From: an uncultured delta proteobacterium
Lineage (GTDB): Bacteria > Myxococcota > Myxococcia > SLRQ01
NCBI GenBank assembly: GCA_963727485.1
Contig: CAVSGM010000002.1
Span: 1,120,001-1,184,000, forward strand
Length of the DNA stretch: 64,000 nucleotides
Direction of reading: 5' to 3'
Position numbers and translations under genes: made by a program. Below the pieces are notes generated by a model. That model saw only the letters and a list, made by a program, of their open reading frames with translations, was not told the DNA's origin and ran no database searches. Below, piece by piece: positions 36,511-48,107 of this stretch (within the stretch, counting starts at the first letter, position 1; each line of letters starts with the position of its first letter).

Positions 36511-36741
36511 CTAGCAGAGGTCGGCGTCGCCGTCGCAGTAGGGCGGCGTCCGGGTCTGCTGGCAGCGGCAGAGGCGGACCACCGCGAAGCCCTCGATCTC
36601 GAAGGGCCGGCAGCGCTCCGGGCCGGGGCAACCCGCCGGGTCGCAGAAGGGTCGGCGCCGCGAGCCCCCGCAGCCGCACCAGCGGTAGGCGCCCCCGGCG
36701 AGCGGCAGGGGCCGGCAGGGGCGAGGGTCCTCGTTGGCCAT
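36511..36741 (-). CDS. CDGSH-like Fe-S protein with atypical ligands
   Basis: WCGCGGSRRRPFCD and LCRCQQTRTPPYCDG motifs; the terminal His is absent in both. Confidence 0.75.
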   Translation of the reverse strand: MANEDPRPCRPLPLAGGAYRWCGCGGSRRRPFCDPAGCPGPERCRPFEIEGFAVVRLCRCQQTRTPPYCDGDADLC

Positions 36742-36819
36742 GGCAGCCACCCTAGGCGCCCGCCGAGGCCACCCGACAGGCCACGGGCCGCCCGGTTCCT
36801 GCCCAGTCGGGCCCCTGCC

Positions 36820-38868
36820 CTACACCGCTCGGGTGCGCAGGAGCTCGGCGAGCCAGCGGATCCCCCGGCCGAGGTAGCGCCGGTAGGTGCTGAAGGCCAT
36901 GCCCACCGCCTCCGCCGCCGCCTCCTGGGTGGGCGCGGGCTCGAGGTAGGTGGCGCGCAGCGCATCGTAGGCCTTCCGGCGGCGCGGGGACTCGGCGAGG
37001 GTCTCGGCGGCGGCGACGAGCTCGTGGCGGAGGATCTCCACCCGGGTGGCCCAGGTGGCGCCGGTCCCGGCCCGGTGCCGGATCAGGGCGGTGTCGAGGA
37101 GGGGGTTGTGGCGGAGCTGGTCCGGGGCGGTGTAGTCCTTGAGGGCCCGGCGCACCGCCTGCTCGAAGGCCTCGGGACCGAGGTCGACCACCGGGGGCCC
37201 CTCGGCCTCCAGGCCCTCGTCGCTCCCGGCCTCCATGAAGCAGAGGAGCCGGTCGAGGATCCCCTCGCTCCCCCGGCGCCCGAAGATCGTGGGCCCCTCG
37301 CCGTCCGCCGGCACCACCTCCTCGAACCCCAGGGCCCGGAGGAGCCCGGCGAAGGGCCCCGGCTCCTGGAACGCGAGGAAGGTCCCCGACGGCGACTCCA
37401 TCGCCCGGAACCGGCGGGCGGCGGCGACGAAGAGCCGGGCCTGGAGGGCACCGGGGCGCTGGTGGTGGTCCGAGTCCATCCAGCTGCGCAGCACCACCAC
37501 CGGGCCGGTGGCGTCGGCGAAGGGACGCAGGTCGAGGAGGTCGCGGATCGTCGGATCCCAGGTGGCGGACGCCAGGGCCTCGGCGGTGGCGAACTCCGGG
37601 AAGAGCAGGTAGCCCCGGGGCAGCCCCTGGACGTCCCGGAAGACCGTGAACGCCTGGGGCCATTCGGCGAGCCACCGCTCGATGTGCTCGGCGGCGGCGG
37701 CGCCCTCGTGGGCCCGGACCATGGTCGTCAGGTGCAGGGCGTCGCCGGCCTTCAGGGGCGTGGCCAGGACGTCCTGGTCGGGATCCCAGACGAAGCCGAG
37801 GCCCGGGAGGGGATCCCGCCGCCGGAGGTAGAGGGCGTTGAGGAGGAGCTGCTCCTCGCCCACGCCCCAGCTCCGGCGGTCGCGCAGGCGCCCCAGGCAG
37901 TAGGCGAGGCCCTGGTCCACCAGGTCCCGGTGGAGGCTGGGGTTGCGCCAGCGCAGGTCCTCCTCGAGGGCCTGGCGGTAGGGCCGGGTGAGCCGCAGCC
38001 CCATGCGCCCCGGGCGGGCGAAGCCCTGGTGGGCGAGCCACCGGTGGATCTCGTGGGGGTCATCGACCTCGAGCATCGCCGCGAGGAGGTCCTCGGTGGT
38101 GCGGCTGAGGAGGGCGGCGGCGTAGAGGGCCCGGCGGTGATGCCTCGTCGGGGCCTGGTCGGCGAGGGTCCCGGCGAGGGCGTGGACCAGCTCGTGGACC
38201 GAGCACTCGCGCTCGCAGCAGGTCACCGCCTCGGTGCAGAAGGTGGCGGCGAGGGAGTGGACCAGGGGCACGCCCCCGGCGCGCTCGGCGATGGCCGGCT
38301 GGCGGAAGTGGGGGACCTGGAGCTGGCTGAGGTTGGTGAGGCTCTCCTCCTGGGACAGGGGCGAGAGCCGGAGGGAGCGGTGGAGCCCCCGCCACGCCGG
38401 GTCCGTCTCCCAGGCCGCGGGGAGGGCGTCGCGGCTGGCCACCAGGATCAGCCAGTCGGCGGGCACCGCCCCCAGGACCTCGACCCAGGTCGAGGCGGCG
38501 TCCTCGGTGAGGCTCCGGGTCCCGTCGAGGATGAGGACCTGCCGCGCCACCCCGGCGCCGGCCTCCACCGCCACCAGCTCGCGGACCCGGCGGGGCAGGT
38601 CGTCGACCGCGTCCGCCTCGACCCAGTGGGCGGGCAGCCCGGCGTCCTCGGCGAGGTAGGCGGCCTCCCGGAGGAGGGCGGTCTTCCCGATCCCCGCGGG
38701 CCCCACCACCGAGAGCAGGTGGAAGGGCCACCTCGGCGCCTCGAGGACGGTGCGCAGGAAGTCGACCTCCGCCCGTCGGCCCACGAAGGCGCGGCGACGG
38801 TTGCGGCGGAGCAGATTGGCGATGACCAGCGTCTGGGGTGCGTGCACGGCTTGGGGGTTCCTGCCCAT
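36820..38868 (-). CDS. AAA/STAND-like ATPase with C-terminal HTH (putative regulator)
   Basis: AFVGRRAE, Walker A GPAGIGKT, VLILDG, and C-terminal PTQEAAAEAVGMAFSTYRRYL HTH. Start is approximate. Confidence 0.8.
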   Translation of the reverse strand: MGRNPQAVHAPQTLVIANLLRRNRRRAFVGRRAEVDFLRTVLEAPRWPFHLLSVVGPAGIGKTALLREAAYLAEDAGLPAHWVEADAVDDLPRRVRELVAVEAGAGVARQVLILDGTRSLTEDAASTWVEVLGAVPADWLILVASRDALPAAWETDPAWRGLHRSLRLSPLSQEESLTNLSQLQVPHFRQPAIAERAGGVPLVHSLAATFCTEAVTCCERECSVHELVHALAGTLADQAPTRHHRRALYAAALLSRTTEDLLAAMLEVDDPHEIHRWLAHQGFARPGRMGLRLTRPYRQALEEDLRWRNPSLHRDLVDQGLAYCLGRLRDRRSWGVGEEQLLLNALYLRRRDPLPGLGFVWDPDQDVLATPLKAGDALHLTTMVRAHEGAAAAEHIERWLAEWPQAFTVFRDVQGLPRGYLLFPEFATAEALASATWDPTIRDLLDLRPFADATGPVVVLRSWMDSDHHQRPGALQARLFVAAARRFRAMESPSGTFLAFQEPGPFAGLLRALGFEEVVPADGEGPTIFGRRGSEGILDRLLCFMEAGSDEGLEAEGPPVVDLGPEAFEQAVRRALKDYTAPDQLRHNPLLDTALIRHRAGTGATWATRVEILRHELVAAAETLAESPRRRKAYDALRATYLEPAPTQEAAAEAVGMAFSTYRRYLGRGIRWLAELLRTRAV

Positions 38869-39039
38869 CGGTTGTCGGGTCGCTCCCGGCGCGCACGGTC
38901 GGGTCCCCGCCCCGGGCCGGCGACGCCATGGGCTGACGCCTCGGACCGGGCCACCTCCATGCCCAGGTCCAGGTTGCCAAAGGCCCCGGCCAGGGAACAG
39001 ACCAGGAACTGCCCACACGCTACACCCCAGGGTCGCTCC

Positions 39040-40824
39040 CTAGTCATCGCCCTCGCCGGGCTCCACGTAGCGTTCCCAGAGGGCGTCGGCGACCAGGCCG
39101 GTGGCGACGGCCAGGCGCCGCCGGAAGGTGCGTCCGGAGATCCCCAGGGTATCGGCGAGGACCCGCTGGGGGAGCTCGGGGTCGCGCCAGAGGCGCCGGA
39201 GCGTGGCCATGGCCTCGGGGTCGGTCCCGGCGGCCTCGACATCGGCGATGCCCGAGAGGAGCCGCTCCACCAGGGCCCCCATTCGGTCCCCCTCCCCCAC
39301 CGGGGGCATGAAGTGCCGGCAGGTGAGCAGGCGGCTGCGACCCAGGACCTCGGGGGTGGGCTGGCGGAGGGTGGCGTCCACGGACTGGCGGAAGCGCTCC
39401 CGGGGCAGGTGGCGCTCGAGCTCGATCCGCCCGGTCTCCACCCGGGGATCGCGATAGAGGGCCACCACCAGGCGCGACTCGCCGTCGAGGGTGTACTCGG
39501 TGAGGGGCGCGGAGCCGGCCCCGAGGGCCACCGCCAGGGTCCAGGCCTCCCCGGGGCGCACCGACGCCAGCACCACCCGGATCCGGGGATCGGCCACCCA
39601 CCGGGACACCACCTCCGCCAGGAGCGCGCGCTCGACGGCGGTGGGTGCGGGCCCAGGCTCGGCGCCGAGGATGCCCCGGAGCAGGAGGGCCCGATCCCGG
39701 GGCCCGAGGCGAAGCTGGTGGCGCAGGGCCCAGTGGGCGGCCGAGAGCCCGTCGTCGGGGCCCTGGGCGTCGTCGGCGGCGAGGGTGGGGTCGAGGTCAC
39801 CGAGGAACATGAACCCCAGGAGCGGCCCGCCGCCGGGGGTCCGGCACAGGTGGATCGCCTCGGGCCGGCGCTCGAGCCACCACCGGGCCACGGTGCTCCG
39901 GTCCCGGCCGCCGCCGGTCTCGCGGACCAGATCGAGGAGGCCTACGCCCTCCACCGGCCGAAGGGGGCGCACCTGGAGGTGGTCGGTGGCCAGCCGTGCG
40001 GGATCGGCGAACACCGGATGTCGGGCGAGGCGCAGGTGGAGGAGCCCCTCGGCCCAGAGGGCCCGGTCCCGAGGCCCGGCGTGGCGGATCCGCCGGCGGT
40101 GGAAGGCCATGAGCCGGACCCGCAGGCGGGCGGTCTCCGGGGCCTGCGCCGCCTCGGCCTGGAGCTGGCGCCGGGTGTCGCGGGTCGCCACCAGGCCCAC
40201 CGCCGCCTGCTCGATCCCCGGCAGGCCCCCGAGCCACTCGAAGAGCCGGGGCCCGGCGACCCGATCGACGACCGCGGCCAGGAGGTCCTCGGTGAGCCGC
40301 GGCGCCAGGGCCGCGACGATGAGGGCCGCCCGGTGCGCCGGGGTGGGCGCCAGGCGAAGGGACGGAGGCCCGCCCACCGCGACCACCCGGGCCAGGGCGC
40401 GCCACCCCGGGTCGGCCCACCAGGCGTCCTCCACCGTCTCCAGGGCGACGACCGTCACCGCCCCGGCGGGGAGGCGCGGGAGCCAGGCCCGGCGCAGCCA
40501 CCGGTTGGCGGCGAGATCGCCGCCGGTGGCGTCGACCAGGACCAGCGGCTGGCGCCGGCCGGCGGCGGCGGCCACCAGGAACGGCTCCGGGGCCGCGACG
40601 AGGATGCCCAGGTCGAGGATCGGTGCCGGGAGGCCCCGCTCGGGGAACTCCCGGGCGAGGGCGAGGAGCGCCTGCCGGAGCGCGGGCACGTGGGCCCCGG
40701 TGACCAGGAGGACGCGGGGCAAGGCGGCGGCGTCGGTGAGGGCGGCGGCGACCGCCTCGACGAGGACACCCTGGCCTTCGGTCGGGGCCTCGGCGCCGCC
40801 CAGCTCGAGCCCTTGCTCGACCAC
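39040..40824 (-). CDS. Degenerate paralog of the adjacent ATPase-HTH regulator (no Walker A)
   Basis: Shares DP(G/A)WR, TEDLLAA and the C-terminal HTH (PQRVLADTLGISGRTFRRRL) with 36820-38868; no GxxGxGK(T/S). Start is approximate. Confidence 0.65.
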   Translation of the reverse strand: MVEQGLELGGAEAPTEGQGVLVEAVAAALTDAAALPRVLLVTGAHVPALRQALLALAREFPERGLPAPILDLGILVAAPEPFLVAAAAGRRQPLVLVDATGGDLAANRWLRRAWLPRLPAGAVTVVALETVEDAWWADPGWRALARVVAVGGPPSLRLAPTPAHRAALIVAALAPRLTEDLLAAVVDRVAGPRLFEWLGGLPGIEQAAVGLVATRDTRRQLQAEAAQAPETARLRVRLMAFHRRRIRHAGPRDRALWAEGLLHLRLARHPVFADPARLATDHLQVRPLRPVEGVGLLDLVRETGGGRDRSTVARWWLERRPEAIHLCRTPGGGPLLGFMFLGDLDPTLAADDAQGPDDGLSAAHWALRHQLRLGPRDRALLLRGILGAEPGPAPTAVERALLAEVVSRWVADPRIRVVLASVRPGEAWTLAVALGAGSAPLTEYTLDGESRLVVALYRDPRVETGRIELERHLPRERFRQSVDATLRQPTPEVLGRSRLLTCRHFMPPVGEGDRMGALVERLLSGIADVEAAGTDPEAMATLRRLWRDPELPQRVLADTLGISGRTFRRRLAVATGLVADALWERYVEPGEGDD

Positions 40825-40905: not shown

Positions 40906-42012
40906 CTAGAGGAAGTCCCCCTCGACCAGGGTCGGGTCGACGTCGGCGCCGGGCTCGGGCCGCGCCGGCGCCTCGCGGGCGATGCGCTCGTGGAGGGTCC
41001 GCAGCCGCGCCACGCAGGCCTCGAGGAGCACCGGCTCCCCGTCGGGATCGAGCCAGCCGTCGAGCTCGTCGTCGAGGCCCCGGAGCTCGGCGAGGCCGGC
41101 GAGGACGGGGTCCGGAGCCCACCGCTCCCCGGCGTCGGCGGCGGCCTCGAGGGCCGCGAGGGCCTCGGCGAGGCGCTCGCCGTCGTGGGCCCGGAGCTCG
41201 GCGCGGTGGTTCACCTGGCGCAGGAGCTGGGCGAAGGCCTCGACGTCCTGCCACAGGCGCATCCCCGCCCGGAGGACCCCTTGGGCCTCCGGGTCCTGGC
41301 GCAGCCACTCGAGGATGCGCTCCTGGAGGGAGCGGAACTGGATGCGATCGGCCACCCGCAGGTCCGGGTAGACCTCCCGGCCGGTGAGCTTGGCGATCGC
41401 GGTGGCCGTGAGACGCAGGCGCCGGATCACCGTCTCCTCGGTGGCCGGGCCGTCGCGGACCACGTCCCCGGCGAACGCGGCGTAGGTGCGCCGGGTCGCC
41501 AGCGATCCCATGAGGCCGGTCTGGTAGTAGCTGTTGTCCGAGTCGAGGCCCTCGAGCTCCGCCACCGCGTGCTCGATGGCCGAGAGGGACTTGAGGATCT
41601 CCCGGCAGGCGCTGCCGGCCTCGTCGATGATCTCCCACCGGGCGTCGTCGCCGCGGAGGGCCTCGAGGGCCTGGAGGCGGCCCCGGAGGCCGAGGCGGGC
41701 GACGAAGGCGAGGTCGGCGATGTCGTGGGCCTCGGGGCCGGCCATGCGCCGGTCCACCTCGGAGCACAGCTTGCCCGGGGCGAGCTCGGTGGGCCGCTCG
41801 CCGTCGGCCACCTGCTCGTAGTGGTCCACGGCGATGTCGAGGATCTCCAGGGACACCTGGAGGAGGCTGCGCACCTGGGCCAGGAGGCGGCCGCGATCGG
41901 CCCCGGGCTCCTCGTAGCGGGCCAGGGGCAGGGCCTGGACCTGCTTGATGGCCCCGATGAGGAACCGGTGGAACTCCGGCGGGGTGACGGTGGTGGGCTC
42001 GGCGGCGGTCAT
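40906..42012 (-). CDS. Hypothetical all-helical protein
   Basis: 368 aa ORF with GC3-biased codons, in the same operon direction; no recognisable motif. Confidence 0.7.
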   Translation of the reverse strand: MTAAEPTTVTPPEFHRFLIGAIKQVQALPLARYEEPGADRGRLLAQVRSLLQVSLEILDIAVDHYEQVADGERPTELAPGKLCSEVDRRMAGPEAHDIADLAFVARLGLRGRLQALEALRGDDARWEIIDEAGSACREILKSLSAIEHAVAELEGLDSDNSYYQTGLMGSLATRRTYAAFAGDVVRDGPATEETVIRRLRLTATAIAKLTGREVYPDLRVADRIQFRSLQERILEWLRQDPEAQGVLRAGMRLWQDVEAFAQLLRQVNHRAELRAHDGERLAEALAALEAAADAGERWAPDPVLAGLAELRGLDDELDGWLDPDGEPVLLEACVARLRTLHERIAREAPARPEPGADVDPTLVEGDFL

Positions 42013-42070: not shown

Positions 42071-42475
42071 CTAGAGGGCGGCCTCGATGGGACCCTGGGA
42101 GACCCGGGCCTTGGCGAGGACCATCCCGATGTTGGCGCTCTTGCGGCAGACGTAGACGATGGCGTGGTCGGGGTACTTCTTCCCCCGCATGAACACGTGG
42201 AGGAGGTTGTCGCTGTTGACGATGATCTCGGTGAAGTAGTGGTGCCCGTCGTCGGCGATGCCGCGGGTCTTCTTGAACAGCTTCTCGATGGCGGTGACGT
42301 TGGTGCCCTGGAAGAGGTCGGCGGTGGCGGCCGACACCAGGTCGAGGACCTCGGAGGGGTGGGAGTCCACGGTCTTCACCGCCAGCAGCATGCCGGTGGA
42401 CATGTCGACGTAGCCCCCCGCGACGCACTCGGGGATGCCGGCAACCTGCTCGTTCAGGGTCTTCTCAAGCGACAT
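42071..42475 (-). CDS. Roadblock/LC7-like small protein
   Basis: IPECVAGGYVDMSTGMLLA...EIIV...LHVF...ANIGMVL pattern seen in Roadblock/MglB-like proteins; strong codon bias. Confidence 0.7.
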   Translation of the reverse strand: MSLEKTLNEQVAGIPECVAGGYVDMSTGMLLAVKTVDSHPSEVLDLVSAATADLFQGTNVTAIEKLFKKTRGIADDGHHYFTEIIVNSDNLLHVFMRGKKYPDHAIVYVCRKSANIGMVLAKARVSQGPIEAAL

Positions 42476-42518: not shown

Positions 42519-43842
42519 CTAGGGACCGGCGGTCGATCCCCAGGGGTGAAGGCGTCGGTCCACGGCGGAGCCGAACGCCTGAAGGAAGCCGACCTGGGCC
42601 GGGGACTGCACCCAACGCGGCTGGATGAGACGGATGGCCTCGAGGACCTCGAGGGGCTCGCCGCCGGCGAGGATCTCCTGGGCGGCGAGCATGGTGCCGG
42701 TGCGGCCGAGGCCGGCGCGGCAGTGGTAGGCGACGACCTCTCCGGCGACGAGGCGCGCGGCCACGGACTCGCAGAAGGCCAGGGCCGCGTCGAGGTCCGG
42801 GGCGGCCATGTCGTCGATGGGGAAGAACAGCCCCTGCATCCCCCGGTCGGTGAGGGCCGTGATCGGCACCGTGGCCGTCTCCTCGAGGGTGACCAAGGTG
42901 GTGATCCCCACCTCCCGGAGGGCGTCGAGGTCGTGGTCCAGCTCGCCGACGACCCCGGGGCGCGGGGTCCCCGCGAGGACCCCCCGGCGCACCCAGTGGA
43001 AGCCCCGGGGGCCCCGGCGCCGGGCCATGGACACCACCGCCTCCGGGGGGATGGGCGTGGGGTCGGGGACCTCGGGGGCCAGGTGGGCCCTGGGGGTCCC
43101 GGGCGCCGGCAGGGCGCAGGAGCCGGTGCGCACGAAGGTCTTCGCCGCCTCGGTGCGCGGGCTGCCGAAGAAGGCCTCCGAGTCCGCGGTCTCGACGATC
43201 CGGCCCCCGGCGAGGAGGGCCACCCGGCCGCCCAGGGCCTTGGCGGTCTGCTGGTTGTGGCTGACCACCAGCACCGGACGGCGGGTCGCCTCGTCCCGGA
43301 GGAGGGCCGCCAGGGCGTCGCGGCTGGGCTCGTCGAGGCCCGAGCAGGGCTCGTCCACGCAGAGGAGGCCCGCGCCCGCCAGGGCGGTGCGCAGGATCGC
43401 CACCTGGCGCTGGAGCAGCATGGGCAGGCCCACGACCTCCTCGTCGAGGCGGGGCAGGAGCCGGACCAGACCCCGGGACGAGAGGATGCGGCTGACGCGC
43501 TGGCGCTGGGCGGCGGGGGTGAGGGCGGCCCGGTCGGCCATCCCCAGCACCAGGTTCTCGGCGACGGTGGCCATGACCAGCTCGGCCTTCTGGGCCACCA
43601 GGTCCGGCCGGGGACCGGTGCCCAGGGGCCGGCCGCGGTACTCGGCCTGGCCCCAGGTGCGCATCGCCGGCTGGGCGTCGTTGGCGCCGGCGAGGGTGCG
43701 CACCAGGGTCGACTTGCCGACCCCGCCCGGGCCCATGAGCACGGTGATCCCCGGGCCCCGGATACTCGAGATCCACCTCCGCGAGGATCACCCGGTCGCC
43801 GAAGGCCACCCCGAAGCCGGTGAGGGTGAGCACCGGGCTCAT
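42519..43842 (-). CDS. ABC-type ATPase fused to a protein-tyrosine/dual-specificity phosphatase (frameshift near 43764)
   Basis: Walker A GPGGVGKS, Walker B LCVDEP and H-loop VSHN; C-terminal PIDDMAAP and HCRAGLGRTG (CX5R). The N-terminus MSPVLTLTGFGVAFGDRVIL joins after removal of one T. Confidence 0.85.
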
Positions 43843-44711
43843 GCGGGCCCTCCCTGGCCCTCGAGGAGGGTCTCTGCCTGGGCGCCGGCGTGGCGGGTGA
43901 GGCAGGCGGTGTCGCCGGCGACGCGGCACAGCCAGGTCCCGCCGTCGTGGGCGAGGACCATGGTCCGCGGCTCGATGCCCTGGACCACCAGGCTCGGGGG
44001 CCGCGCCAGGGGCCCGACGCTCCGGGCGATGCGGGCGATCTCCGAGAGCTCCATCCCCTCGAACCCCTGGAAGCGCAGGGGCAGCGGGGTCGCCTGGGCG
44101 TCCCGGTCCACCCAGACCAGCATCGCCACCTCGGCGAGGTCCCGGACCCGCTCGTAGTGAGCGACCGCCGGGCCCGCCGGGGCGGGCAGGGCGTGGGTGA
44201 CGACGCGCCGGTAGAGGGCCTCCGGAGAGAAGGCGAGGCCCACCCCCCGGGCCTTCTCCAAGGGCTTGAAGGGCATCACCAGGCGGCGCCCCAGGGTACG
44301 GCCGGCGAGCTCCAGGAGCTGGCGGCAGAGCACCTGCTCCAGGGCGGCGCGCACCACCTCCAGGTGGCGGCCGCCGGCGTCGGCGAGGACCGCCTCCAGG
44401 GGGCGGCCCCCGGTACGGGCGGCGTAGACCGCCGTCCGGAGGACGTCGAGGGTCGGCGGGCTCCACCGGCGCAGGAGGTCGTGGACCGCCCCGTCGTCGC
44501 CGGCGCCCCGGACCAGGTGGAGGCGCCCGTCCTGGACCACCATCGAGGCCAGGGGGGTGCCGCTCTCGGCGTCACAGACCTGGAGCTCCCCGCTCTCGGT
44601 GGCCCGACCGGCGACGGCGAGGAGGGCGAGCACCCGGCCGACCCGCCGGCGGGCGGCGGGGACGCCTTCCACCTCGGCATCGTCAATCTCATGGGGTTCG
44701 CGGGGATCCAT
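43839..44711 (-). CDS. Hypothetical protein (N-terminus resembles DUF4388/PatA-N-like domain)
   Basis: ATESGELQV...VVQDGRLHLV pattern; stop overlaps the start of the ABC-phosphatase gene. Confidence 0.6.
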   Translation of the reverse strand: MDPREPHEIDDAEVEGVPAARRRVGRVLALLAVAGRATESGELQVCDAESGTPLASMVVQDGRLHLVRGAGDDGAVHDLLRRWSPPTLDVLRTAVYAARTGGRPLEAVLADAGGRHLEVVRAALEQVLCRQLLELAGRTLGRRLVMPFKPLEKARGVGLAFSPEALYRRVVTHALPAPAGPAVAHYERVRDLAEVAMLVWVDRDAQATPLPLRFQGFEGMELSEIARIARSVGPLARPPSLVVQGIEPRTMVLAHDGGTWLCRVAGDTACLTRHAGAQAETLLEGQGGPA

Positions 44712-44874
44712 CCGTCAAGGGTCGAGCCTAGGGGGGTGTGACGGACCGGTGACAGGTCACTTGGCGCCCGGATCCTGCTCGGATCCTGATCAGTCGCTGC
44801 CCGCGGGGGTGGACAGGCCCCGGGCAGCACCCGGCCTTTCGGGCGTCCGCCCCGGCTCCCTACCCTGGTCGTCG

Positions 44875-44964
44875 ATGCGCACCCCCCTGATGGAGACCGT
44901 CGCCCTGCTGCTCCTCACCGTCGCCGGCGTGGCCGTGGCCGCCTCGGTCCTCCTGGTCCCATGA
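44875..44964 (+). CDS. Possible small single-TM membrane peptide
   Basis: MRTPLMETVALLLLTVAGVAVAASVLLVP; its stop overlaps the globin start (ATGA). Confidence 0.4.
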   Translation: MRTPLMETVALLLLTVAGVAVAASVLLVP

Positions 44965-45542
44965 GCCGCCGGGTGAGACGCCGGGACGGGCCCCTGCGCG
45001 CGAGGCCGGAGGTGTGGCGGTCGCTGGACGACGGGGCGCGTCTGCGCGCGGGCCTCGAGCACTTCTACGCCCGGGTCTTCGAGGATCCGGCGCTGGCGCC
45101 CTTCTTCACCGAGACCGGGGTGACCCGCCGCCACGTGGTGGACAAGCAGTTCAACTTCCTCCGGGACCTGCTCACCGGCGACGGGAGCTACTTCGGCAAC
45201 CGCCCCCGCAACGCCCACCACTGGATGATCATCTCCGAGGCCCTCTTCGACCACCGGGAGGCCCTCCTCCAGGACTCCCTGGCCGCCTGTGGGGTGCCGC
45301 CCCTGGCCCGGGACGCCATCCGGGAGATCGACGAGGTCTTCCGCAAGCAGATCGTCAAGGATCGGCCCATCCCCCGGCGCATGGGCGGGATCACCTTCCC
45401 CCTCGACGGCGTGGAGGAGATGGAGATGCCGCTGGGGACGGTCTGCGACGCCTGCGGAGATGCGGTCGAGGCCGGGGACCGGGTCCGCTACCACGTCCGC
45501 ACCGGGCGCACCTGGTGCCTCGGCTGCGCCCCCGCCCCCTAG
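44961..45542 (+). CDS. Group I truncated hemoglobin with C-terminal Cys4 zinc ribbon
   Basis: FYARVFEDPALAPFF, KQFNFL, YFGNRPRNAHH and ISEALFD globin motifs; then CDAC...WCLGC. Confidence 0.82.
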   Translation: MSRRVRRRDGPLRARPEVWRSLDDGARLRAGLEHFYARVFEDPALAPFFTETGVTRRHVVDKQFNFLRDLLTGDGSYFGNRPRNAHHWMIISEALFDHREALLQDSLAACGVPPLARDAIREIDEVFRKQIVKDRPIPRRMGGITFPLDGVEEMEMPLGTVCDACGDAVEAGDRVRYHVRTGRTWCLGCAPAP

Positions 45543-45550
45543 GAGGCTCC

Positions 45551-45787
45551 ATGGCCCGCATCGGCCCCATCCGCATCGAGCTCGACCCCGGCCGCTACCA
45601 CTGGTGCGCCTGCGGCACCTGCCCCGACGCGCCCCTCTCGGACGGCGCCTGCGCCGGCGACCGGCCCGCCGTCCCCTTCGAGCTCACCGAGCCCACGCGA
45701 ATCCGACTCTGCCGCTGCCGCCACACCTCGAACCCTCCCTACTGCGATGGCAGCCACTACCAGGTGGCGGAGGATGAAGCGGGATAG
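45551..45787 (+). CDS. CDGSH iron-sulfur protein
   Basis: AGGAGG RBS; WCACG...SDGAC and LCRCRHTSNPPYCDGSH. Confidence 0.85.
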   Translation: MARIGPIRIELDPGRYHWCACGTCPDAPLSDGACAGDRPAVPFELTEPTRIRLCRCRHTSNPPYCDGSHYQVAEDEAG

Positions 45788-46157
45788 CTCGGAGCAGCTC
45801 GTCGACTGCGAAGCGGGGCGGCGGATGGGGTGCGCCACCTTCTGCTGCCGGCTCATCGTCCGCTATGACCCCGGGGAGGTGGTGCGTTCCCCGGAGGGGG
45901 TGCGCAAGCACTGCGTGGACAAGGACCCGGACACGGGCCTCTGCGTGAACCTCGACGCAGCGACCGGGCGCTGCCGCATCTGGGAGCGGCGGCCTTCGGT
46001 GTGCCGGGCCTACGACTGCAACGCCGACCCCAGCCTCCAGGTGGTGCTCCGGGAGGGGTTCCGGTCGCTCGTGGCGCTGGCGTTGTCGCCGACGGTGGTG
46101 CCCCGGGATCGGTGGATCCCGGTGCCCACCCTGGACGGCGACGACGACCCTTGCTAG
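45774..46157 (+). CDS. YkgJ-family cysteine-cluster protein
   Basis: C...CATFCC, CVNLD...CRIWERRPSVCRAYDC motif. Confidence 0.85.
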   Translation: MKRDSSEQLVDCEAGRRMGCATFCCRLIVRYDPGEVVRSPEGVRKHCVDKDPDTGLCVNLDAATGRCRIWERRPSVCRAYDCNADPSLQVVLREGFRSLVALALSPTVVPRDRWIPVPTLDGDDDPC

Positions 46158-48107
46158 GCGGCCTCGGTCTTCTTGGCGCCGGAACCGGCGGCCTTGCTCG
46201 CCGCGGGGGCCTTGGCCGGGGCCTCCACCGGCTCGCTGGTGTTCTTCTCGGCGAGCTCGGCGAGGATCCGGTCGCCGGTGTGGACGATCTGGTCCCAGTT
46301 GTAGCGGATCCGCGGCTCGCACCGCTCCATCCACCGCGCGGCGAGGGCCCGGCGCTCGGGGTGCTTCTTCGCCTGCTCGACCAGGATCTCGGCGGCCTTC
46401 ACGTCGAAGAGGATCTTGGTGAGCTTCTCGGCGTGGAGCAGCCCGTAGGAGAAGTCGCGCTTGGGGTCCCAGTCCTTGAGGAAGGTGTCCACGAACTTGG
46501 GCAGGGGCCCGGCCATGGCCACCGACCACTTGTCCTTGGCGATCTTGAGGAGCAGGTGCTGCATCGCCGACCAGGCCAGGGTCTCGAGGCCGAAGTACTT
46601 GCGCTCGAGCTCGTCGCCAGCCCGCAGGGCGCCGACCTTGGCGGCGGCGAGCTTGCGCAGGAAGCGCTGGGGCTTCTTGATGGCGCCGGTGAGGTTGTCC
46701 TTGAGGACCATCAGCGACTGGATCTGGCTGGTGCCCTCGTAGACCGGCATCACCAGGGCGTCCCGGAGCAGCTTCTCCGCCGGGTAGTCCTGCATGTAGC
46801 CGTTGCCGCCGAGGATCTGCATCGCCATCCGGCTCATGGCCACCGCCTGCTCGGCGCCCTGGTACTTGAGCAGGGGGGTGAGCTCCCGGGCCCGGCGGCG
46901 GTGGCGGCTGACCTGCTTGCGGATCTCGGTGGCGCCGCCGGCCTGGCTGGGGATGCGCTGGAGGTACTCGAGGCGGGTGGCCATCTCCTCGTGGAACGCC
47001 GCCTCGACGGCGACCGCGCGCATGGCCTTGATGGTGACGTCCATCTCGTCGAGGTAGTCGTAGATCATCTCGTGGCGGGCGATGGGCTTGCCCATGGACC
47101 AGCGCTCCTCGGCGTAGTCCTTGGCCACCCGGTAGGCGGCCTCGCAGGTGCCGATGGCCTCGAAGCCCACGCCGATGCGGGCGTTGTTCATCAGGAGGAG
47201 CATCAGGTGGAAGCCGTCGCCCTCCTTGCCCACCAGCTCGCCCACCGAGTCCTCGAACTGGAGCGAGCAGGTCGGTGAACCGTGGTGCCCGATCTTCTCC
47301 TCGACCCGGTCGACGTAGAAGTTCTGGACCGTCTCGCCGTCCTTCTCCAGGGTCATGGGGACCATGAACAGGCTGATGGCGGAGAGGTCCTCCTTGTCCT
47401 CGGTCTTGGCCAGCACGAAGTGGTACTTCCCGTGGCCCGAGGTGATGAAGATCTTGTTGCCGGTGATGCGCCAGGTGCCGTCGTCGGCCTTGACCGCCTT
47501 GGTGCGCAGGGCCGCCAGGTCGGAGCCCGCCCCCGGCTCGGTGAGATCCATGGAGCCCCAGGTCTTGCCCTCGAGGATCTCGGCGATCTCCTTCTCCCAG
47601 CGGGTCGAGGTGATCTGCCCGTTCTCGTCGAAGACCGTGGAGCCCTCGCGCAGGGAGTACTGGAGCATGGTGGTGGCGATGCCCACGTGGAAGCCGAAGT
47701 GGGTCATCACCGAGGCGTCGGCGCGGCTGACCACCTCGCACAGCAGGAAGTAGAGGAGCATCGGGGCGTTCATCCCGCCGAGCTCCCGGGGCAGGGTCAG
47801 TCCCGTGGACGCCCATCTCGGTGAGCTGCTGGAAGATGGCGTCGAAGGCCGGCGCCGTCTTCACCACCCCGTCCTTCAGGGTGGTGCCCGTGTGGTCGAT
47901 CTCCGCGGACTTGGGGGCCACCTCCTCGGCGACGAAGCCCCCGAGGAGCTCGAGGATGTCCTTGTAGGTCTCCAGGGCCTCCTGCCAGGTCTTCGGCGCG
48001 TCGACGGCGGTGTAGTGCCGCTCCACGGTGTCGACGAGGGTGGACCAGTCGACGACGTGGTCCACGTAGAACTGGAGGTCTTCGTTGTCGCGGAAGAAGT
48101 TGGCCAT
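46154..48107 (-). CDS. Acyl-CoA dehydrogenase (frameshift near 47800)
   Basis: MANFFRDNEDL N-terminus, MDLTEPGAGSD, GNKIFITSG, QILGGNGY and VYEGTSQIQ; the two frames join after removal of one base (VHG/LTLPRELGG). Confidence 0.9.

What the first reader, a model, noticed from the sequence alone, without database searches (positions are those of the whole stretch)
42519..43842. ABC ATPase with degenerate signature motif fused to a Cys-based phosphatase
Seen: Walker A (GPGGVGKS), Walker B (CVDEP) and H-loop (VSHN) are intact, but the LSGGQ signature is replaced by LPMLLQ. The phosphatase keeps HCRAGLGRTG and an acid loop (PIDDMAAP). Inference: an ATP-binding but possibly non-dimerising ABC domain may gate phosphatase activity, an unusual architecture. 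One extra T near 43764 splits the gene and is probably an assembly error.
Basis: partly seen in the sequence, partly recalled or inferred. Interest (0 to 1): 0.72.

Follow-up and report, generated by a model that had tools for sequence, protein, structure and literature searches.

The report
ABC ATPase capped by Roadblock dimer
A transporter-type ATPase fused to a cysteine phosphatase has lost the motif that such ATPases use to pair up, and it travels with a small Roadblock protein that is predicted to cover its ATP site instead, which would make the two an undescribed bacterial signalling switch.

Summary
The minus-strand gene encodes a PstB-like ABC domain fused to a CX5R phosphatase. A read contig lacks the extra base at 43764, so the break is probably an assembly error. 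In 150 diverse homologues the catalytic residues are nearly invariant (Walker B DE 150, Q-loop 146, Walker A K 143, His 141), but none has LSGGQ and the D-loop Asp is mostly lost. No permease lies next to it (0 of 95 loci; control 12 of 12). A structure prediction on a homologous pair places the Roadblock dimer over the ATP site (score 0.74, best control 0.00). Roadblock paralogues without the ATPase have lost much of that surface. Best reading: the Roadblock replaces the second ABC subunit and likely triggers hydrolysis; gating of the phosphatase and an oxygen/NO input (neighbouring globin) are inferred only. This scan noted the same gene module earlier on other genomes; two key reviews could not be read.

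The parts
43765..43842 (-). N-terminal 26 codons of the ABC-phosphatase gene (first strands and the conserved aromatic residue before Walker A); out of frame with the rest in this assembly
   Evidence: start codon overlaps stop of upstream gene
43764..43764 (-). Extra base that breaks the frame; probably an assembly error
   Evidence: one contig of run X1 lacks it; homologues are continuous here
42519..43763 (-). Main reading frame: ABC ATPase domain, conserved linker, Cys-based phosphatase domain
43710..43733 (-). Walker A
   Evidence: K in 143 of 150 representatives; coordinates
43587..43598 (-). Q-loop
   Evidence: Q in 146 of 150
43407..43427 (-). Degenerate signature (LPMLL in place of LSGGQ)
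   Evidence: 0 of 150 with LSGG[QEM]
43332..43361 (-). Walker B (DE) and eroded D-loop
   Evidence: D 150, E 150 of 150; D-loop Asp 40 of 150
43251..43265 (-). H-loop
   Evidence: H in 141 of 150
43070..43130 (-). TGSC motif and proline-rich linker, predicted second docking site for the Roadblock protein
   Evidence: G 147, C 130 of 150; interface residues 240-259, mapped
42798..42821 (-). Phosphatase general-acid loop
   Evidence: D in 147 of 150
42696..42725 (-). Phosphatase P-loop HCX5R
   Evidence: C 147, R 147 of 150
42071..42475 (-). Roadblock-fold partner (134 aa, here called RB2), the obligate companion gene
   Evidence: fold Z 15.5 to a Roadblock/LC7 structure, rmsd 2.4, 118 aligned; 85 of 85 loci with room; predicted complex
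43839..44711 (-). Upstream 290-aa gene with a DUF4388/PATAN-like N-terminal domain; accessory in Myxococcota loci
   Evidence: profile match to neighbour family c10, probability 93.7%, E 2e-7; c10 hits DUF4388 just under cut-off
40906..42012 (-). 368-aa gene of unknown family, recurrent accessory in Myxococcota loci
   Evidence: 11 of 44 loci with 3 kb on each side; no usable Atlas hit
44961..45542 (+). Truncated (2/2) globin with a C-terminal CxxC...CxxC site; divergently placed accessory
   Evidence: Pfam Bac_globin; 28 of 44 loci with 3 kb on each side
45539..45787 (+). CDGSH iron-sulfur protein; accessory
   Evidence: Pfam zf-CDGSH; similar ORFs in 4 other loci
45747..46157 (+). CxxCxxCC cysteine-cluster protein; accessory
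   Evidence: Pfam; 23 of 95 loci

Best explanation
The gene encodes a permease-free, PstB-like ABC ATPase fused to a cysteine phosphatase, and its adjacent Roadblock protein is predicted to dock as a dimer over the ATP site in place of the second ABC subunit, likely completing the site and triggering hydrolysis so that the pair would work as a cytoplasmic ATP-driven switch. Step 1 (shown): the residues that act within one subunit are kept, those that act across the ABC dimer are lost, and no permease is encoded nearby. Step 2 (shown): the Roadblock gene is the one constant companion. Step 3 (predicted, about 0.75): it binds the ATP face and the linker. Step 4 (inferred, about 0.5): binding stimulates hydrolysis, as MglB does for MglA. 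Step 5 (inferred, about 0.4): the nucleotide state sets phosphatase activity or its access to a substrate. Step 6 (inferred, about 0.4): the input is oxygen, nitric oxide or redox state, read through the neighbouring globin and iron-sulfur proteins. In proteobacteria the same pair is plugged into a Group 3-type MglA operon; in this genome it stands without that GTPase.
For: Motif pattern in 150 representatives at 50% identity: Walker B D 150 and E 150, Q-loop 146, Walker A K 143, His 141; LSGG[QEM] 0 (2 if LSDGE is allowed), against 31 of 48 ABC domains of the same genome under the wider pattern; D-loop Asp 40. No ORF with 3 or more predicted membrane helices within 1.5 kb in 0 of 95 loci, control pst loci 12 of 12. 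RB2 in 85 of 85 loci with at least 600 bases downstream, directly downstream in 81. Whole genomes: all 12 of 401 Myxococcota-phylum genomes with the fusion have RB2; in the class of G401 the 6 of 400 genomes with the fusion are the 6 with a high-scoring RB2. Predicted complex of the L006 pair with ATP and Mg: score 0.74, best of 3 controls 0.00; the mark was reached by 116 of 157 solved complexes and 2 of 215 mismatched pairs (counts hold only roughly here); runs agree in at least 93% of contacts, partner pLDDT at least 76. The interface covers Walker A, Q-loop, catalytic Glu, D-loop, H-loop and the linker, and uses RB2 loops rather than helix 2, which MglB uses for MglA (PMC6785124, passages). 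RB2-like paralogues with no ABC-phosphatase beside them keep 60 of 132 interface invariants against 147 of 220 other invariants (11 proteins), two Ruegeria ones 5 and 4 of 12 against 14 and 15 of 20. In G248, whose ABC gene ends before the linker, RB2 has changed E16 and M118, two residues the model sets against that linker. Globin in 28 of 44 loci with room, in both phyla and in different gene orders.
Against: Nothing has been measured. The complex was predicted for a homologous pair (53% and 81% identical to the window's proteins), from alignments I supplied, so conservation at the interface (12 of 24 invariant against 20 of 110 elsewhere) is not independent of it. Loop residues drift faster than core residues anyway, and R71, G72, N115 and M118 are kept in most orphan paralogues; N115 and R111, also set against the linker, are kept in G248. 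The model lists no confident contact between RB2 and the phosphatase domain, and split forms exist, so gating is not shown. A cap on the ATP site could inhibit rather than activate. No kinase is a recurrent neighbour, so the substrate is unknown. The globin is missing in 16 of 44 loci with room. Loci are the best 80 of 487 matches and partly redundant. The window's own copy may be a true pseudogene.
Confidence: 0.55

Rival explanations
1. RB2 binds the ATP face as predicted but as an inhibitor or nucleotide lock; hydrolysis needs another partner or a non-canonical homodimer once RB2 is released.
For: Same co-occurrence and same predicted interface. The model cannot tell activation from blocking.
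Against: No other gene is constant in the loci, and the signature and D-loop needed for a homodimer are eroded. Roadblock dimers are activators in the studied case, MglB (PMC9481161, passages).
Confidence: 0.2
2. One reading: the ABC domain is a monomeric ATP/ADP sensor that binds but does not hydrolyse and gates the fused phosphatase from within; RB2 serves the MglA-type GTPase or is only a scaffold.
For: Signature lost throughout; fusion kept in most relatives found; a GTPase lies in 64 of 95 loci; tandem forms carry a second, dead ABC domain.
Against: Catalytic Glu is invariant (150 of 150), unlike degenerate ABC sites (established knowledge, recalled). RB2 follows the ABC gene, not the GTPase: it is present in the window genome, where that GTPase family was not found. 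Split forms exist.
Confidence: 0.13
3. The protein is a conflict or anti-phage effector whose phosphatase attacks nucleotides, lipids or RNA ends.
For: Best Pfam hits are phosphatase models named after toxin and RNA-repair systems; distribution is patchy (12 of 401, 6 of 400); one plasmid copy lies between mobile elements.
Against: PADLOC gives only a short generic ABC match for 1 of 7 window proteins; recurrent neighbours are signalling and redox genes; no delivery domain in 30 long forms scanned.
Confidence: 0.07
4. The ABC domain still works with a transporter, for example as a heterodimer partner or regulator of PstB, linking the phosphatase to phosphate status.
For: PstB is the best match in NCBIfam, among single-domain solved ABC chains and in the own genome; sister group in two quick trees, support 82 and 93.
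Against: No permease nearby; cross-dimer motifs eroded; G071 (96% complete) has the fusion but no PstB match.
Confidence: 0.05

Closest known systems
MglA-MglB switch of Myxococcus xanthus (PDB 6izw, 6hjm)
   Same: A Roadblock homodimer binds one P-loop NTPase 2:1 and completes its active site (PMC9481161, PMC6785124, passages). RB2 has the same fold (Z 15.2, rmsd 2.1, 117 aligned to 6hjm).
   Different: The NTPase here is an ABC ATPase, not a Ras-like GTPase; RB2 is predicted to use loops, not helix 2; 10% identity to MglB; a phosphatase is attached.
Group 3 MglA systems (Wuichet and Sogaard-Andersen, PMC4316618; passages and section 18 read)
   Same: Proteobacterial loci have the same frame: unknown protein, MglA-type GTPase with a D-x-R G5 motif, one or two Roadblocks.
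   Different: The paper's main text has no mention of a phosphatase, globin or ferredoxin (supplement not read). The window's locus and genome lack this GTPase.
PstB, phosphate ABC importer ATPase
   Same: Closest named ABC family by profile, by solved-chain search and by tree.
   Different: 76 bits against a cut-off of 343; no LSGGQ; no pstSCA context; the genome has its own PstB elsewhere.
Small Cys-based dual-specificity phosphatases (DUSP23/VHZ, SsoPTP, Tk-PTP, Cdc14; PDB 25xa)
   Same: CX5R loop, general-acid Asp, fold.
   Different: Fused or coupled to an ABC domain; substrate unknown.
HGbRL, globin-Roadblock fusion of Methylacidiphilum infernorum (PMC4476040, passages)
   Same: Precedent for a globin proposed to signal through a Roadblock domain.
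   Different: Full-length globin fused to the Roadblock; no ABC or phosphatase mentioned in the main text.
PhnK/PhnL of C-P lyase and other non-transport ABC ATPases
   Same: ABC domains attached to an enzyme rather than a permease; top fold match.
   Different: PhnK works as an ABC dimer (titles of 7z15, 7z18); here the dimer motifs are lost.

Membership tests
ABC transporter nucleotide-binding domain | ABC fold with Walker A, Q-loop, Walker B and H-loop | tested here: met
ABC transporter nucleotide-binding domain | LSGGQ signature | tested here: not met
   0 of 150; also absent in both domains of 16 tandem forms and in 21 stand-alone forms
ABC transporter nucleotide-binding domain | D-loop aspartate | tested here: not met
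   40 of 150; the window's copy does have it
ABC transporter nucleotide-binding domain | Cognate permease gene or domain | tested here: not met
   0 of 95 within 1.5 kb, control 12 of 12; 1 of 95 within 3 kb, a non-recurrent gene 2.6 kb away
ABC transporter nucleotide-binding domain | ATP-dependent dimer and ATP hydrolysis | not testable with these tools
PstB (TIGR00972) | Score over the curated cut-off | tested here: not met
   76.3 against 343.2 bits
PstB (TIGR00972) | Descent from or sisterhood with PstB | tested here: inconclusive
   sister group at SH-aLRT 82 (80 rows) and 93 (40 rows); quick trees, outgroups from one genome only
Cys-based PTP/dual-specificity phosphatase | HCX5R loop and general-acid Asp | tested here: met
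   C, R, D each 147 of 150
Cys-based PTP/dual-specificity phosphatase | Fold | tested here: met
   TM-score 0.86-0.89 by target length to DUSP23, Tk-PTP, ShufPTP
Cys-based PTP/dual-specificity phosphatase | Activity on phosphoprotein substrates | not testable with these tools
   needs assay
Roadblock/LC7 (MglB-like), for 42071-42475 | Roadblock fold | tested here: met
   Z 15.5, rmsd 2.4, 118 aligned
Roadblock/LC7 (MglB-like), for 42071-42475 | Pfam Robl_LC7 match | tested here: not met
   no Pfam family; Atlas lead 0.89 only
Roadblock/LC7 (MglB-like), for 42071-42475 | GAP activity on an MglA GTPase | not testable with these tools
   needs assay
Group 3 MglA system | MglA-type GTPase and receiver-like/wHTH gene in the locus | tested here: not met
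   not found in the window or its genome, 93% complete; present in 64 and 60 of 95 related loci
Group 3 MglA system | GTPases of related loci fall in the Group 3 clade | tested here: inconclusive
   G4/G5 motifs and context fit; no tree with reference sequences was built
Polymorphic toxin phosphatase (Pfam Tc-R-P) | Domain score over cut-off | tested here: met
   64.5 against 27 bits
Polymorphic toxin phosphatase (Pfam Tc-R-P) | Delivery domain or secretion-system context | tested here: not met
   none among Pfam hits of 30 long forms or of the recurrent neighbours scanned

The most novel reading that the evidence does not exclude
This is an ABC ATPase that has given up the ABC dimer altogether and uses a foreign Roadblock dimer as its activating subunit, a GAP-like mechanism for an ABC enzyme; it forms an ATP-clocked phosphatase switch that reads oxygen or nitric oxide through a truncated globin and, in proteobacteria, is bridged to a small GTPase through the free helical face of the same Roadblock.
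Probability: 0.3. Interest if true: 0.9.

Novelty: new variant of a known kind. Interest (0 to 1): 0.72.

Why it matters
That ABC ATPases hydrolyse ATP only as a head-to-tail pair, each subunit lending its signature to the other, is textbook. A widespread family that keeps every catalytic residue, drops the signature and recruits a Roadblock protein to close the site would be an exception with a clear test. It would also extend Roadblock proteins from regulators of small GTPases to regulators of ABC ATPases, give the untested Group 3 MglA operons a biochemical handle, and point to a phosphatase-based oxygen/NO signalling route in sediment and microaerophilic bacteria.

Tried and rejected
Literature: nine searches listed no paper on this fusion or on a Roadblock acting on an ABC ATPase. 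Burroughs and Aravind 2023 (PMC10034599) and Krishnan et al. 2020 (PMC7544218), the two surveys most likely to mention it, are not held: nothing of them was seen, so absence from print is not established. The supplement of PMC4316618 was not read. The GTDB contig scan with a single protein gave only 4 loci. No match among 40 relatives including the 4 other genomes of the family. Promoter and terminator scan of 44600-45050 found nothing. Atlas gave no usable hit for the 368-aa gene. The careful tree did not finish; only quick trees are used, and 40 of 80 rows were dropped for the second. Direct searches of the 290-aa gene against the N-termini of long fusions were not significant; only a weak profile match was found (71%). 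The two STAND-like ATPase-HTH genes (36820-40824) were considered as members and rejected: no homologue in the other 94 loci. Look-ups of earlier scan notes by sequence, by place and for a predicted complex showed nothing. A homodimer prediction was not run.

Full report
Observation. The gene lies on the minus strand at 42519-43842 of a 5.55 Mb, 14-contig, 93% complete genome; its neighbours' closest relatives and named hits point to Myxococcota (inference). The frame breaks at 43764. The 26 codons before the break match the family's N-terminus, the start codon overlaps the stop of the upstream gene, and one contig of run X1 lacks a base at exactly 43764. It is a single contig at depth 3.2 and the other runs do not bridge the place, so I put an assembly error at about 0.9. 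Two other genes in the window also look split between frames (near 47800 and 50450, read from the ORF list, not tested).

The family. There are 1122 relatives among 8000 candidates scored. Sources name them only by domain, for example 'atypical dual specificity phosphatase'. In 150 representatives at 50% identity the residues that act within one ABC subunit are almost fixed: Walker B D and E 150 each, Q-loop 146, Walker A K 143, H-loop 141. The two motifs that act across the ABC dimer (established knowledge) are not: LSGG[QEM] in 0, D-loop Asp in 40. For tandem proteins one row mixes two domains; both domains of the 16 tandem forms were checked apart and none has the signature. As a control, 31 of 48 ABC domains of the same genome match a wider signature pattern, under which the family would score 2 of 150. 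The phosphatase keeps C, R and the acid Asp in 147 of 150. The predicted fold (pLDDT 86) matches ABC domains and small phosphatases such as DUSP23 and Tk-PTP. PstB is the nearest named ABC family and the sister group in two quick trees, at support 82 and 93; that is suggestive, not shown.

The neighbourhood. Across 95 loci (4 GTDB, the best 80 of 487 metagenome matches, 10 genome regions, the window; partly redundant) no multi-pass membrane gene lies within 1.5 kb, against 12 of 12 pst control loci. The constant companion is the 134-aa gene at 42071-42475, RB2: 85 of 85 loci with room, 81 directly downstream. It has no Pfam match, 71% mean column identity and a Roadblock fold (Z 15.5, rmsd 2.4, 118 aligned). 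In whole genomes the two go together: 12 of 401 in the window's phylum have the fusion and all 12 have RB2. Of the 2 further RB2 genomes, G248 has a split version and G190 a distant paralogue. In the class of G401, 6 of 400 have the fusion and they are the 6 with a high-scoring RB2; 7 more have distant paralogues only. Only 4 candidates per genome were scored, so misses are possible. Proteobacterial-type loci add an unknown protein, an MglA-type GTPase (64 of 95), a canonical Roadblock and a ferredoxin-FAD-NAD-globin fusion, which fits the Group 3 MglA systems of PMC4316618 (passages and section 18). Myxococcota loci add a DUF4388-like gene, a helical unknown, a stand-alone truncated globin and a VOC/DUF2621 gene. 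The window has this second form; the GTPase family was not found in its genome.

The predicted complex. I folded the intact L006 pair (53% and 81% identical to the window's proteins) as one ABC-phosphatase, two RB2, ATP and Mg. Score 0.74, best of 3 controls 0.00; the mark was reached by 116 of 157 solved complexes and 2 of 215 mismatched pairs, counts that hold only roughly here; runs agree in at least 93% of contacts; partner pLDDT at least 76. The model supports binding and does not show it. RB2 sits on Walker A, the Q-loop, the catalytic Glu, the D-loop, the H-loop and the TGSC linker, which is the face that the second ABC subunit normally closes. It uses loops of one copy (15-18, 36-40, 89-91, 111-118) and 67-73 and 80 of the other, not helix 2 (41-56), the surface by which MglB binds MglA (PMC6785124, passages). 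The pass is therefore unlikely to be a copy of the MglA-MglB structure, though I cannot exclude memory of another complex.

Checks on the interface. Half of the 24 RB2 interface residues are invariant against 20 of the other 110, but the model saw the same alignment. More telling are sequences it did not see. Eleven RB2-like paralogues without an adjacent ABC-phosphatase keep 60 of 132 interface invariants and 147 of 220 others; S38, P40, F67 and R111 are mostly lost, while R71, G72, N115 and M118 are mostly kept. Two Ruegeria paralogues in dynamin operons keep 5 and 4 of 12. In G248 the ABC gene stops before the linker, and its RB2 is the only one of 95 high-scoring copies with E16 changed to Lys and M118 to Leu, both set against the linker in the model; N115 and R111, also set against it, are unchanged. 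These are few and related cases, and loops drift faster than cores.

Mechanism. An invariant catalytic Glu makes little sense for a site that only binds ATP, and with the signature gone in every member something else must close the site. RB2 is the only constant candidate and is predicted at the right place. I therefore read the pair as a switch in which the Roadblock dimer acts on the ABC domain as MglB acts on MglA (PMC9481161, passages). What the switch controls is less clear. The model lists no contact between RB2 and the phosphatase, 21 stand-alone ABC forms exist, and no kinase recurs in the loci, so the substrate could be a protein or a small molecule. The globin, present in 28 of 44 loci with 3 kb on each side and in both phyla, together with CxxCxxCC and CDGSH genes and a redox-sensitive catalytic cysteine (established knowledge), suggests oxygen, NO or redox input. 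A globin-Roadblock fusion is a precedent (PMC4476040, passages).

Novelty. Nine literature searches found no description, but two surveys by the Aravind group could not be read and may list the architecture. Six earlier notes of this scan describe the same module on other genomes; they are unchecked AI notes, seen after my reading was formed, and none of the lines shown mentions a predicted interface. The kind, a Roadblock-regulated P-loop switch, is known; its use on an ABC ATPase with a phosphatase output is not described in what I could search. Verdict: real, widespread, new variant of a known kind, interest 0.72.

Noticed in passing
L120:8358-10500 (G248): Natural split form: RB2, a 223-aa ABC gene with a shortened helical subdomain ending at the TxGC motif, a stand-alone phosphatase, then a globin.
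   Followed up: yes
P0124, P0126, P0141 and 13 others: Long forms with a live ABC domain, a second ABC domain lacking Walker A lysine and H-loop, then the phosphatase; several start with a domain weakly like window 43839-44711. One (P0151) has an N-terminal Ser/Thr kinase.
   Followed up: partly
L149:1742-10692 and L150 (Ruegeria plasmids): RB2-like Roadblock genes sit inside operons of four dynamin-family genes next to a protein kinase, with no ABC-phosphatase: a possible Roadblock-dynamin module.
   Followed up: partly
L148:4062-6402 (Ralstonia solanacearum megaplasmid, 8 records): GTPase, ABC-phosphatase and RB2 between mobile-element genes; looks like a recent island.
   Followed up: partly
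window 36820-40824 (-): Two adjacent STAND-like ATPase/HTH genes (732 and 594 aa) continue the strand after the module; no homologues in the other loci or elsewhere in the genome.
   Followed up: partly
window 36514-36819 (-): A second CDGSH-like ORF, so the cluster is flanked by CDGSH genes on both sides.
   Followed up: partly
window 44890-44964 (+): Possible 24-residue hydrophobic peptide whose stop overlaps the globin start.
   Followed up: no
window about 47800 and about 50450: An acyl-CoA dehydrogenase-like gene and a VWA-like gene appear split between frames (names recalled from the translations), suggesting further indel errors in this assembly.
   Followed up: no
L011:8717-12174, L001, L029, L085: Polyangiaceae-type loci add a second, divergent Roadblock, a calcineurin-like phosphoesterase and a long MglA-like GTPase after RB2.
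   Followed up: partly
L028:8925-10550 and 26 similar ORFs: A 2Fe-2S ferredoxin, FAD/NAD reductase, truncated globin and C-terminal CxxC site in one chain, the reverse order of flavohaemoglobin; not found described in one search.
   Followed up: partly
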